Shown here: positions 14,301 through 17,300 of the stretch, piece after piece | Numbering within the stretch: the first letter of the stretch is position 1 | Layout: each line of letters starts with the position of its first letter | Assembly: GCF_022846255.1 (NCBI RefSeq) | Contig: NZ_AP025682.1 | DNA: 64,000 bases | Direction: 5' to 3' (one strand) | DNA from: Escherichia coli | GTDB lineage: Bacteria > Pseudomonadota > Gammaproteobacteria > Enterobacterales > Enterobacteriaceae | Position numbers: made by a program

Positions 14301-17300
14301 CAGGAATCCAATCACCGAACAAATACCTACCGTGGTGCCCATAATGTAAGACGGTGTTCTTGCTTCGCCGGGGCAGGCCCAGTACAGCCCGCGTGAGGCG
14401 TAACAGGTGAATCCCAGTAATAAAATCAGGCCAATCCCCATCGCGACCGATTGCGGGTTAGAGTTCGTGACGAGCAGGGCAGTTAACGCCAGCAAGCCGA
14501 GTACGGAAAGGATTTGGATCACGCGGGTAGGGGATTTCACTTTGCTGTAGGTGGTGATAATGCCACCAAGTGGGCCGCACAGTGCGCGGAAGATTTTGTT
14601 GATCACAATCCCCATGTAGCTCGCCGCCACCAGCGACATGCCGTACATTTCGGTCAGATAGTTGGTGGAGTAACTCAGAATGGCGTAGATGGTGAAGACA
14701 CCAAAAATCACCATGCTGCAATACCAGGTGGTGCTGATGCGCAAAACGGCCAGGATGTCGCTAAGCTGGAATGACTGTTTTTCTTCGTTATTGGTATTGC
14801 GCAGGTTGTTGTTATCGCTAACAAAAAACCAACACAAAATGCCCAGCAGAATGTAAACCACACTATAGATAATAATGACCGTTTTCAGGCTGGCGCTGTC
14901 ATCCGGTGCAAAGCGAGAAAAGACCCACATGGTAAACACCGCCAGCGACATTACACCGACGCCGCGCAGCCCTTCCATCCAGCCCATAATTTTCCCTTGC
15001 TCGCTATGATCGCCCAGCAACGATGCGGCTTTAATCGACACCGACCACAGCATTAAAATCGTCGTTATCGCAAAGGCGACCTGAATACAGAGCATTACCC
15101 ACAGCGGTGGATATGTTGCCATTAACAGACCCAGTAATCCGGTAATGATCATCGCGGAAGTAATCATTTTGCGGTGTGAAAATTTATCGGCAATAACGCC
15201 GCTGGGGGCATAAAGAATAATAGCCGCAATACCAAAGGTACTCATTATTAAACCTATCTCGGTATTGCTGAATCCCATAAATTTCGCCATGGGAATTTGA
15301 TAAATATAACGTAAATAAGCCAGGTCGAAACTAACGCCGCCGCTAAAACTAATTATCGCGAGGGTTATCCAACGGCGATATGAGTTGTGTTGCATATCGT
15401 ATTCCCATTTGTAATAGACAAAAAAAAGAGAAAAGTAAGCCGCCCTTTCAGGTGGATTACTTTTCTCAGGTCTCTAGTAATTGCAATAAGAAATAACATG
15501 GAAAGCAGTGGTGTTGTGTGAGAGTAATCACGCTTCTGCTTTTTAAAATTATTTGACAATTCGAATATAACACTGTGATTACGATCACATTAGCGATTAT
15601 GCCCTTATGATAAAAATTATCTCCAGTTACCAGAGATAATGAGAAAGGTAACTTCCCTCTCGCGGGGGAAGTTACCTTTCTTTTTTTTTGCCTTACGGAA
15701 ATTGGAGCTAACTATGTCAATCGAATCTCTCAATGCGTTCTCAATGGATTTTTTCTCCCTGAAAGGTAAAACAGCAATTGTTACCGGCGGGAATAGCGGT
15801 TTAGGCCAGGCATTTGCCATGGCGTTGGCCAAAGCTGGCGCAAATGTCTTTATTCCTAGTTTTGTCAAAGATAACGGCGAAACAAAGGAAATGATTGAAA
15901 AACAGGGTGTTGAAGTGGACTTCATGCAGGTGGATATCACCGCAGAAGGCGCGCCGCAGAAGATTATCGCTGCCTGCTGTGAGCGCTTCGGTACCGTAGA
16001 TATTCTGGTTAACAATGCCGGTATTTGTAAGCTGAATAAGGTGCTGGACTTTGGTCGTGCCGACTGGGACCCGATGATTGACGTGAACCTGACCGCCGCA
16101 TTCGAGTTAAGCTACGAAGCGGCAAAAATTATGATCCCGCAGAAAAGCGGTAAAATCATTAATATCTGTTCATTGTTCTCTTACTTAGGTGGTCAATGGT
16201 CACCTGCTTATTCTGCCACTAAACATGCTCTTGCCGGATTCACCAAAGCCTATTGCGATGAATTAGGCCAATATAATATTCAGGTGAATGGTATTGCTCC
16301 TGGTTATTATGCAACCGATATTACGCTGGCGACCCGTAGTAATCCAGAAACTAACCAGCGTGTTCTTGATCATATTCCGGCAAACCGTTGGGGTGATACT
16401 CAGGATTTAATGGGTGGAGCCGTATTCCTCGCAAGTCCGGCATCGAATTATGTCAACGGACATTTATTAGTGGTTGATGGCGGTTATTTAGTGCGCTAAT
16501 TCATAACGGTGGTTTCTGTTTTCTCTTATTAATGAATATTCCATTTTTATTATCAGGAAGGAATTACTATGTCTTTATCTCGCGTAGCGATTGTCGACCA
16601 GCTAAAGGAAATTGTTGGTGCAGATCGCGTAATTACCGATGAAACAGTATTAAAGAAGAACAGTATTGACCGTTTTCGTAAATTTCCGGATATTCATGGC
16701 ATTTATACTTTGCCAATTCCGGCAGCGGTCGTAAAACTCGGTTCCACAGAACAAGTATCCCGTGTGCTGAATTTTATGAATGCGCACAAAATTAACGGTG
16801 TGCCACGTACCGGTGCTTCCGCCACCGAAGGTGGGCTGGAAACCGTTGTGGAAAACTCGGTGGTGCTCGACGGCTCCGCCATGAATCAAATCATTAATAT
16901 TGATATTGAGAATATGCAGGCCACGGCGCAATGTGGCGTTCCGCTGGAGGTGCTGGAAAACGCGTTGCGTGAAAAAGGTTACACCACGGGGCATTCTCCG
17001 CAGTCAAAGCCGCTGGCGCAGATGGGCGGCCTGGTGGCGACCCGCAGTATCGGGCAGTTTTCCACACTCTACGGCGCAATCGAGGATATGGTCGTTGGTC
17101 TGGAAGCGGTGCTGGCAGATGGCACCGTCACACGCATTAAAAACGTGCCACGTCGCGCGGCTGGCCCGGACATTCGTCATATCATCATCGGCAACGAAGG
17201 TGCACTGTGCTATATCACTGAAGTCACAGTGAAAATCTTCAAATTTACGCCGGAAAACAATCTCTTCTATGGCTATGTGCTGGAAGACATGAAAACCGGC

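What the first reader, a model, noticed from the sequence alone, without database searches (positions are those of the whole stretch)
15571..15592. Perfect CRP consensus site in the divergent yqcE/ygcW control region
The sequence TGTGA-ttacga-TCACA matches both CRP half-sites exactly. It lies between the divergently oriented yqcE (MFS transporter) and ygcW (SDR) starts, so cAMP-CRP probably drives one or both operons, consistent with a catabolite-repressed carbon utilisation system.
Basis: seen in the sequence. Interest (0 to 1): 0.45.

Follow-up and report, generated by a model that had tools for sequence, protein, structure and literature searches.

The report
Known CRP site, plus hidden attenuators
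The perfect CRP site between yqcE and ygcW is real but already published, and it is one half of a mirrored control region in which each gene has its own CRP-dependent promoter followed by a premature terminator, probably overridden by the cluster's own antiterminator protein, YgcP.

Summary
Observation confirmed. TGTGAttacgaTCACA lies at window 15574-15589, in the 318-bp E. coli yqcE/ygcW spacer. It is the only perfect match in 64 kb.

The site is not new:
- CRP ChIP-seq in ETEC lists this exact sequence.
- Footprint-seq on K-12 DNA gives a Kd of 1.7 nM.
- An EMSA and co-expression study lists yqcE-ygcE as Crp-activated.

- A second, 9/10 CRP site lies 57 bp away (15517-15532). Both sites are conserved in about 50 Enterobacterales species.
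- Each site sits at a fixed distance from its own TGnTA extended -10 element. This implies two back-to-back class II promoters. The perfect site serves ygcW and the weaker one serves yqcE.
- Both transcripts begin with a paralogous leader: a weak, covarying hairpin (GTTACY / loop AGAGA-N3-GAGAAA / RGTRAC) overlapping a strong intrinsic terminator.
- Published Term-seq maps RNA 3' ends at both terminators in K-12.
- The leader motif travels with ygcP (GlpP-family antiterminator) into Listeria, Bacillus and Enterococcus. It is absent from Rfam.

CRP is therefore probably necessary but not sufficient. Readthrough most likely needs YgcP and an unknown inducer; this step is inferred.

The parts
15571..15592 (.). 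Perfect 22-bp CRP site (core TGTGAttacgaTCACA 15574-15589, centre 15581.5). Inferred activator site at -41.5 of the ygcW promoter.
   Evidence: ChIP-seq and Footprint-seq from the literature. Conserved in orthologues.
15514..15535 (.). Second CRP-like site, 9 of 10 half-site bases (TGTGAgagtaaTCACG 15517-15532, centre 15524.5). Inferred activator site at -41.5 of the yqcE promoter.
   Evidence: Conserved at a fixed distance from the yqcE leader in about 48 species.
15608..15616 (+). Extended -10 element TGaTAAAAA of the inferred class II ygcW promoter. Predicted start near 15623 (K-12 2900364, minus strand).
   Evidence: TGn(T/A)A lies at CRP centre +26.5/+27.5 in 95 of 98 modules. No start-site data could be reached.
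15490..15498 (-). Extended -10 element TGtTATTTC of the inferred class II yqcE promoter. Predicted start near 15483 (K-12 2900504, plus strand).
   Evidence: Same geometry as the ygcW module.
15626..15652 (+). ygcW leader antiterminator hairpin: GUUACC (15626-15631), loop AGAGAUAAUGAGAAA, GGUAAC (15647-15652).
   Evidence: -6.7 kcal/mol. The helix is 99.1% paired, with GC/AU and UA/CG swaps, on an alignment whose model did not contain it.
15641..15689 (+). ygcW leader intrinsic terminator: 19-bp stem 15641-15682, then a U run to 15689. The Term-seq 3' end maps to 15676.
   Evidence: -30.6 kcal/mol. K-12 3' end at 2900311(-), intrinsic terminator score 15.8, not Rho-dependent.
15456..15481 (-). 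yqcE leader antiterminator hairpin: AUUACU (15481-15476), loop AGAGACCUGAGAAA, AGUAAU (15461-15456).
   Evidence: A-U replaces G-C at the outer pair, a compensatory change.
15420..15467 (-). yqcE leader intrinsic terminator: stem 15467-15428, then a U run 15427-15420. The Term-seq 3' end maps to 15431.
   Evidence: -20.5 kcal/mol. K-12 3' end at 2900556(+), intrinsic terminator score 11.4, not Rho-dependent.
15714..16499 (+). ygcW (SDR, KduD-like, below the NCBIfam cut-off). It is the first gene of the same-strand run ygcW-ygcU-ygcS-ygcR-ygcQ (to 21068).
14118..15395 (-). yqcE (MFS transporter), followed by ygcE (FGGY kinase, 12613-14091).
21216..21791 (-). ygcP, a GlpP-family (Pfam G3P_antiterm) protein. 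It is the proposed antiterminator acting on both leaders.
   Evidence: Pfam E = 1.4e-62. PDB 3KTS and 1VKF are relatives. Linked to the leader motif across phyla.

Best explanation
The 22-bp element is a genuine, high-affinity cAMP-CRP binding site. This is shown by published ChIP-seq and in vitro footprinting.

Its most likely job is to activate a class II promoter for the ygcW operon. That promoter has an extended -10 element, and the site is centred near -41.5 from a start around 15623. This is inferred from conserved geometry. A second, slightly weaker CRP site 57 bp away does the same for yqcE-ygcE on the other strand. Published EMSA and co-expression data support Crp activation there. 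The spacer is therefore two inverted copies of one module.

Each transcript opens, within a few bases of its 5' end, with a short hairpin: GUUACY / loop AGAGA-N3-GAGAAA / RGURAC. The 3' half of this hairpin is also the 5' arm of a much stronger intrinsic terminator, which lies just before the ribosome-binding site. By default the terminator forms and transcription stops. RNA 3' ends at both terminators are mapped in K-12.

Readthrough most likely requires YgcP, the GlpP-family protein of the same cluster. The proposal is that YgcP, loaded with an unknown phosphorylated sugar or polyol (possibly the product of the kinase YgcE), binds and stabilises the weak hairpin. This step is inferred. Expression would then need two signals: low glucose, sensed through CRP, and the specific substrate, sensed through YgcP.
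For: CRP binding:
- The sequence is exact.
- ETEC ChIP-seq lists the exact site.
- Footprint-seq gives Kd 1.7 nM.
- The yqcE-ygcE promoter region bound Crp in EMSA and is classed 'Crp activation'.

Two sites, each with its own promoter:
- Both sites are conserved in 50 spacers from Escherichia to Pantoea, Serratia and Budvicia.
- The CRP centre lies 43.5-45.5 nt before the leader motif in 98 modules.
- TGn(T/A)A lies at centre +26.5/+27.5 in 95 of 98 modules.
- The distance between the two CRP sites varies from 36 to 173 bp.
- The two modules in the window align as inverted paralogues.

Terminators:
- They are predicted and fold at -30.6 and -20.5 kcal/mol, z = -7.8 and -5.0.
- Term-seq 3' ends have intrinsic terminator scores of 15.8 and 11.4, with Rho scores below threshold.

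Antiterminator:
- The helix is 99.1% paired, against 15-62% when slid, with compensatory swaps, on an alignment not fitted to it.
- Position 35 pairs in 89 of 90 sequences in this helix but in only 32 of 90 in the terminator.
- The hairpin alone is weak, at -6.7 and -1.4 kcal/mol.

Link to YgcP:
- YgcP belongs to the GlpP family.
- Each Enterobacterales locus has exactly two motif copies, at these two leaders only.
- The same motif lies next to ygcP homologues in Thalassobacillus (56 bits), Enterococcus (41.6 bits), Bacillus, Listeria and Faecalibacterium. There it follows sigma-A promoters and has no CRP site.
- B. subtilis GlpP targets have the same layout of promoter, GlpP site and 5'UTR terminator.
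Against: - No transcription start data could be retrieved, so -41.5 rests on the conserved TGnTA and its spacing.
- The -10 hexamers are poor (TAAAAA, TATTTC).
- Shimada et al. proposed different promoters in this spacer from RNAP SELEX: TTGACA-16-TGTGAT for ygcW, whose -10 overlaps the CRP site, and a distant one for yqcE. They also report H-NS binding there.
- Only yqcE-ygcE, not ygcW, appears in the Crp-activated list.
- The Term-seq 3' ends appear only in the LB OD 0.4 list. They are absent from the LB OD 2.0 list, where cAMP should be high.
- Nothing shows that YgcP binds RNA, and the inducer is unknown.
- The covariation events are few and partly shared by descent.
- Canonical S. aureus glp leaders match the model only weakly, at 7.6 and 12.8 bits.
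Confidence: 0.68

Rival explanations
1. One shared CRP site. The perfect site alone activates both divergent promoters, and the 9/10 site is incidental.
For: The perfect site is the only one named in the ChIP-seq and Footprint-seq tables. ChIP cannot resolve sites 57 bp apart. The Crp-activated unit reported is yqcE-ygcE.
Against: The second site is conserved in nearly every orthologous spacer, at a fixed 43.5-44.5 nt from the yqcE leader. The distance from the perfect site to the yqcE leader changes with the 36-173 bp spacing between sites. The perfect site would lie near -98.5 of yqcE, which is out of helical phase with the usual upstream activator positions.
Confidence: 0.12
2. CRP acts here as a repressor, or roadblock, of a constitutive sigma-70 promoter. 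That promoter's -10 (TGTGAT, 15574-15579) lies inside the site and follows a perfect TTGACA (15553-15558).
For: RNAP holoenzyme SELEX places a constitutive promoter in this spacer and predicts TTGACA-16-TGTGAT for ygcW. TTGACA is present in the window and in K-12.
Against: TTGACA is not conserved even in other Escherichia species, where it is TTGATA or TTATCA. The CRP site, TGnTA and leader geometry are conserved across the order. The spacer counts 15 nt here, not 16. Reported regulation is activation.
Confidence: 0.07
3. The leaders are switched by something other than YgcP: a small-molecule riboswitch, a leader peptide, or another protein. CRP control is as described above.
For: There is no direct evidence for YgcP-RNA binding. 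The conserved loop could be a ligand or pseudoknot element. The W-type leaders carry an ATG at 15639, in frame with ygcW.
Against: There is no Rfam family. The conserved part is a 6-bp stem with a 14-15 nt loop, which is small for an aptamer. The ATG is not conserved in E-type leaders, which have CTG, CAG, AAG or ACG. The motif co-occurs with ygcP across three phyla (Enterobacterales, several Firmicutes, and next to glpP-like genes on an Enterococcus megaplasmid), whatever the promoter type. The layout equals that of known GlpP targets.
Confidence: 0.18
4. The match is a chance or non-functional CRP site that binds CRP without regulatory consequence.
For: Ten of 100 shuffles of the window give a perfect match. 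Many CRP-bound sites in E. coli have no known output.
Against: The site is intergenic, is conserved with a varying spacer across about 50 species, and has fixed geometry to a promoter element. EMSA and co-expression evidence also count against this.
Confidence: 0.03

Closest known systems
Class II CRP-dependent promoters with an extended -10 element, such as E. coli galP1 (textbook knowledge, not tested here)
   Same: The CRP site is centred about -41.5 and replaces the -35 element. A TGn motif lies upstream of a weak -10 hexamer. Both modules in the window and about 95 orthologous modules show this geometry.
   Different: The start site is inferred, not mapped. Two such promoters lie back to back as inverted paralogues. 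Each is followed directly by an attenuator.
B. subtilis GlpP antitermination at the glpD, glpFK and glpTQ leaders
   Same: A GlpP-family protein is encoded in the cluster. The target has a promoter, a putative protein site and an intrinsic terminator in the 5'UTR. Firmicute copies of the motif follow sigma-A promoters. By eye, S. aureus glpF and glpD leaders share AGTTAA...GAGA-N3-4-GAGA overlapping the terminator arm.
   Different: The genes controlled are not glycerol genes. They encode an SDR, a FAD oxidase with ETF, a FGGY kinase of unknown substrate and MFS transporters. The inducer is unknown. YgcP is only 25-33% identical to the canonical GlpP copies sampled. The covariance model scores canonical glp leaders at 7.6-12.8 bits, which is not significant. 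In Enterobacterales the promoter is CRP-dependent.
E. coli bgl operon: CRP-dependent promoter, H-NS silencing, BglG antitermination at leader terminators (textbook knowledge)
   Same: The logic is the same: a catabolite-controlled promoter, a protein-mediated override of a leader terminator and an H-NS-bound region. The weak antiterminator hairpin overlaps the 5' arm of a strong terminator.
   Different: The antiterminator protein belongs to an unrelated family (GlpP TIM-barrel type rather than CAT-PRD). The RNA motif differs from RAT. No PTS link is evident.
Published CRP target 'ygcW/yqcE' (PhyloScan 2007, ETEC ChIP-seq 2015, EMSA 2021, Footprint-seq 2026)
   Same: It is the identical sequence and locus.
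   Different: Nothing differs for the site itself. None of these papers, as far as they could be read, describes the second site, the promoter class or the leader attenuators.

Membership tests
CRP binding site | Palindromic TGTGA-N6-TCACA core within a 22-bp site | tested here: met
   10 of 10 half-site bases at 15574-15589, and the extended TGTGAT/ATCACA is also matched.
CRP binding site | Occupied by CRP in vivo and bound with high affinity in vitro | tested here: met
   Checked by literature look-up, not by experiment. ETEC ChIP-seq peak with this sequence. Footprint-seq Kd 1.7 nM on K-12 DNA. EMSA of the yqcE-ygcE promoter region.
CRP binding site | Half-sites conserved in orthologous regulatory regions while the spacer drifts | tested here: met
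   50 spacers: the left half-site TGTGA is kept in 49, and the right half is TCACA, TCACG or TCGCT. The 6-bp spacer varies.
Class II CRP-dependent promoter | Site centred near -41.5 relative to the transcription start | tested here: inconclusive
   TGn(T/A)A lies at centre +26.5/+27.5 in 95 of 98 modules, which implies -41.5/-42.5. No mapped start could be retrieved.
Class II CRP-dependent promoter | Transcription depends on cAMP-CRP | tested here: inconclusive
   yqcE-ygcE is listed as Crp-activated. No such entry exists for ygcW. Leader 3' ends are seen in LB but not in the M63-glucose list, which is only suggestive.
GlpP-type antitermination system | A G3P_antiterm (GlpP) family protein encoded with the regulated genes | tested here: met
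   YgcP matches Pfam PF04309 at E = 1.4e-62 and has PDB relatives 3KTS and 1VKF. Linkage with ygcW, ygcU, yqcE and ygcE holds in about 55 species.
GlpP-type antitermination system | Intrinsic terminator inside the 5'UTR of the regulated operon | tested here: met
   Predicted and folded. K-12 Term-seq 3' ends lie 38 and 36 nt before the start codons, with intrinsic terminator scores of 15.8 and 11.4.
GlpP-type antitermination system | Alternative (antiterminator or protein-site) structure overlapping the terminator | tested here: met
   The 6-bp helix is 99.1% paired with compensatory changes, on an alignment whose model lacked it.
GlpP-type antitermination system | Protein binds the leader RNA and gives inducer-dependent readthrough | not testable with these tools
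   Only co-occurrence of the motif and ygcP homologues across phyla is available.
Known riboswitch or cis-regulatory RNA family (Rfam 15) | Match to a curated covariance model at or near its gathering score | tested here: not met
   Best hits score 25 bits or less against gathering scores of 60-107, all to unrelated families.

The most novel reading that the evidence does not exclude
The two leaders are the Enterobacterales form of a conserved, undescribed RNA target for a YgcP subfamily of GlpP antiterminators. The target is a 5'-terminal hairpin with two GAG-containing loop elements that competes with an intrinsic terminator. The module was apparently acquired with the gene cluster from Firmicutes, duplicated in inverted orientation, and refitted with CRP class II promoters in place of sigma-A promoters. 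If so, this would be a GlpP-type antitermination system in E. coli. I found none described in the literature I could search. It would give a direct handle on the unknown substrate of the ygc cluster.
Probability: 0.55. Interest if true: 0.55.

Novelty: already known. Interest (0 to 1): 0.3.

Why it matters
The CRP site itself adds nothing new. It is a published CRP target in front of genes of unknown function.

The value lies in the context. The ygc cluster is uncharacterised, and no functional paper could be found. The architecture explains why CRP binding has not translated into obvious expression: both operons are attenuated right after initiation.

If YgcP is the antiterminator, terminator-readthrough reporters offer a simple screen for the inducing substrate, and so for the pathway. 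The RNA motif could be added to RNA family libraries to annotate GlpP-type regulons outside glycerol metabolism.

Tried and rejected
- **Rfam scan of 15000-16100 at E up to 5.** Only noise was returned.
- **Transcription start data.** Thomason 2015 is not held. The Cappable-seq supplements have no coordinates in this region. The Conway 2014 supplements are not held. The Footprint-seq supplements are not held.
- **Leader-peptide attenuation.** Rejected, because the ATG at 15639 is not conserved in the yqcE-type leaders.
- **More copies of the leader motif elsewhere.** I looked for copies before ygcN, ygcS or elsewhere. The pattern search and the covariance model found none in the window or in 46 loci. 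Antisense hits are echoes of the palindromic terminator.
- **Whether canonical glycerol-operon leaders belong to the same RNA family.**
  - The S. aureus glpF and glpD leaders score only 7.6 and 12.8 bits, although they look related by eye.
  - A C. butyricum glpP-like locus gave no hit.
  - The B. subtilis sequences in the supplement of PMC9604022 are images only.
- **Mapping distant window positions through strain 118UI coordinates.** This failed because the strains differ beyond the cluster, so it was replaced by direct searches.
- **The MAFFT alignment A2.** It misplaced a 3-nt insertion in five rows. It was replaced by the model-based alignment A3.
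Full report
**1. The observation**

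The window reads cacTGTGAttacgaTCACAtta at 15571-15592. Both CRP half-sites are exact, and the flanking T and A of the extended consensus (TGTGAT...ATCACA) are present. It is the only perfect TGTGA-N6-TCACA in the 64-kb window. Shuffles expect 0.10 matches, and 10 of 100 shuffles give at least one, so the count alone is only suggestive.

The DNA is E. coli. The 299-bp spacer query matches 5066 of 5426 complete genomes at 95-100% identity. The ygcW start codon is at 15714, as in PGAP and K-12. The spacer is therefore 15396-15713, 318 bp.

**2. The site is already known**

- PhyloScan ranked yqcE/ygcW among its top CRP predictions in 2007 (PMC1794230).
- CRP ChIP-seq in ETEC H10407 lists TGTGATTACGATCACA for ygcW/yqcE (PMC4287617).
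- A 2021 study validated the yqcE-ygcE promoter region by Crp EMSA and classed it 'Crp activation' (PMC8085971).
- Footprint-seq (2026 preprint) gives Kd 1.7 nM for acTGTGAttacgaTCACAtta on K-12 DNA. It calls the site 'novel' only in the sense that it is absent from RegulonDB's lists (PMC12871828).

**3. A second site and a mirrored architecture**

With one mismatch allowed, a second site appears 57 bp away: TGTGAgagtaaTCACG at 15517-15532.

I fetched 64 loci encoding relatives of YgcP from one genome per species. The cluster ygcP/ygcU/ygcW/yqcE/ygcE is conserved in about 50 Enterobacterales species, and in colinear form in Listeria and Bacillus. In 50 divergent yqcE/ygcW spacers both CRP-like sites are present. 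The half-sites are kept and the 6-bp spacers vary.

The distance between the two sites ranges from 36 to 173 bp across genera. In contrast, each site keeps a fixed distance to features on its own side:
- The CRP centre lies 43.5-45.5 nt before a conserved leader motif.
- A TGn(T/A)A element sits at centre +26.5 or +27.5 in 95 of 98 modules.

If TGnTA is read as an extended -10 element, each CRP site falls at -41.5/-42.5. That is the class II position, with no -35 element needed. In the window:
- The ygcW module has TGaTAAAAA at 15608-15616, with a start near 15623.
- The yqcE module has TGtTATTTC at 15498-15490 on the minus strand, with a start near 15483.

The two modules align with each other from the CRP site to the start codon (extended by eye). 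They are inverted paralogues. The perfect site is therefore best assigned to ygcW and the weaker site to yqcE-ygcE. The start sites are inferred, because I could not retrieve start-site data.

**4. Both leaders are attenuators**

Just upstream of each ribosome-binding site lies a strong hairpin followed by a run of eight or nine T residues:
- 15641-15682 plus T9 on the plus strand, at -30.6 kcal/mol and z = -7.8.
- 15467-15428 plus T8 on the minus strand, at -20.5 kcal/mol and z = -5.0.

These terminators are used in vivo. Adams et al. 2021 (eLife, PMC7815308) list two RNA 3' ends in their supplementary tables for MG1655 in LB at OD 0.4:
- 2900311(-), 38 nt before the ygcW start, with average read count 40640, Rho score 0.50 ('No') and intrinsic terminator score 15.8.
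- 2900556(+), 36 nt before the yqcE start, with Rho score 0.61 and intrinsic terminator score 11.4.

Scores above 3 predict intrinsic termination. The K-12 spacer is also 318 bp, so window coordinate = 2915987 minus K-12 coordinate. The two 3' ends map to 15676 and 15431, at the 3' foot of the GC-rich part of each stem.

The paper's main text does not mention these genes. No 3' end with coordinates 29003xx or 29005xx appears in the LB OD 2.0 or M63-glucose sheets. The absence in glucose fits catabolite repression. The absence at OD 2.0 does not obviously fit.

**5. A conserved antiterminator**

The leaders from all species share GTTACY, then AGAGA-N2-4-(T)GAGAAA, then RGTRAC. They then have a variable, covarying upper stem, and finally TTTCTC plus a T run.

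GTTACY can pair with RGTRAC, which is also part of the 5' arm of the terminator. The two structures therefore exclude each other.

I built a covariance model containing only the terminator (R1) and used it to align 93 copies (A3). On that alignment, which was not fitted to the upstream helix:
- The helix is paired in 99.1% of cells, against 15-62% when the partner is slid.
- It shows GC:65/AU:24 at one end, UA:64/CG:22 at the other, and one AU-to-GC change in the middle.
- Column 35 pairs in 89 of 90 sequences in this helix, but in only 32 of 90 in the terminator.

These swaps represent few independent events, so they are supportive rather than conclusive. Alone the hairpin is weak, at -6.7 and -1.4 kcal/mol. 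This is what one expects if a factor must stabilise it.

A leader peptide is unlikely, because the ATG at 15639 is not conserved in yqcE-type leaders. No Rfam family matches.

**6. The link to YgcP**

YgcP (21216-21791, minus strand) is a full-length GlpP-family protein (Pfam E = 1.4e-62; PDB relatives 3KTS and 1VKF).

R1 finds exactly two copies per Enterobacterales locus, at these two leaders and nowhere else in 20 kb. It also finds copies next to ygcP homologues in Firmicutes:
- Thalassobacillus (56 bits), upstream of ygcW.
- Bacillus sp. DNRA2, two copies.
- Five Listeria species, upstream of the ygcU-ygcP-yqcE-ygcW-ygcE operon.
- Faecalibacterium and Lachnoclostridium.
- An Enterococcus gilvus megaplasmid (41.6 bits), before an MFS gene divergent from the glpP-like gene.

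In these organisms the motif follows TTGACx-17-TATACT promoters and starts within a few bases of the expected 5' end, as inferred for E. coli.

In B. subtilis, GlpP targets are described as a promoter, a GlpP site and a terminator in the 5'UTR (PMC9604022). S. aureus glpF and glpD leaders show, by eye, AAGTTAAT...(A/C)GAGA-N3-4-GAGA running into a terminator arm. R1 scores them at only 7.6 and 12.8 bits, so I treat that resemblance as a lead.

The step 'YgcP binds the hairpin and prevents termination' is inference from linkage and from the family's known mechanism.

**7. Rivals**

- **One shared CRP site for both promoters.** This is disfavoured by the conserved second site and the variable inter-site spacing.
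- **CRP as a repressor of a TTGACA-15-TGTGAT promoter.** This promoter was suggested by RNAP SELEX. It is disfavoured because TTGACA is not conserved even within Escherichia and because the reported regulation is activation.
- **A riboswitch or other factor acting at the leaders.** This remains possible.
- **Chance.** This is excluded by conservation and by experiment.

**8. Verdict**

The finding is correct and its interpretation is supported, but it is already in the literature and is ordinary for a catabolic locus. The added value of this pass has three parts:
- The two-site, two-promoter assignment.
- The evidence that both operons are attenuated.
- The conserved leader RNA linked to YgcP, which appears undescribed in the literature I could search.

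Noticed in passing
window 15622-15694 (+) and 15416-15485 (-): Paralogous leader RNAs with mutually exclusive antiterminator and terminator structures. They are conserved in about 50 Enterobacterales species and next to ygcP homologues in several Firmicutes. The motif is absent from Rfam. K-12 Term-seq 3' ends sit at both terminators, but the source paper does not discuss them.
   Followed up: yes
window 15517-15532: A second CRP-like site, 9 of 10 half-site bases, 57 bp from the perfect one. It is conserved and tied to the yqcE promoter. None of the CRP papers read here names it.
   Followed up: yes
window 38512-38527: TGCGACCACGGTCACA, a one-mismatch CRP-like site inside nlpD. Its reverse complement is listed as a CRP ChIP-seq site '(nlpD)' in ETEC.
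   Followed up: partly
window 47269-47284: GGTGAGCTGATTCACA, a one-mismatch CRP-like site inside ltnD (L-threonate dehydrogenase). There is no evidence of function.
   Followed up: partly
window about 11400-11975: A CRISPR array lies between queE and ygcE, judged from the annotation of a near-identical strain. The ORF listed at 11528-12448 is therefore probably spurious.
   Followed up: no
L010 about 16325-16470 and L011 about 12671-12815: In Citrobacter youngae and Klebsiella spallanzanii, about 127 bp are inserted between the yqcE leader terminator and the start codon. The insert resembles the ERIC/IRU repeat, recalled from the ERIC2 primer sequence and not tested.
   Followed up: partly
L032 13856-13985: In Limnobaculum eriocheiris the yqcE/ygcW spacer is only 130 bp. 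It holds one bidirectional terminator-like hairpin, no CRP sites and no GTTACY element, so the control region looks degenerate or rebuilt.
   Followed up: partly
L056-L063 against the window cluster: YgcW is 76-79% identical between E. coli and Listeria or Bacillus, whereas YgcP is about 55% and YqcE about 48% identical. This suggests horizontal transfer of the cluster between Firmicutes and Enterobacterales.
   Followed up: no
window 15553-15558: A perfect TTGACA lies 15 bp upstream of TGTGAT, which is the left CRP half-site. This matches the constitutive promoter predicted from RNAP SELEX, and the same paper marks the spacer as H-NS bound.
   Followed up: partly
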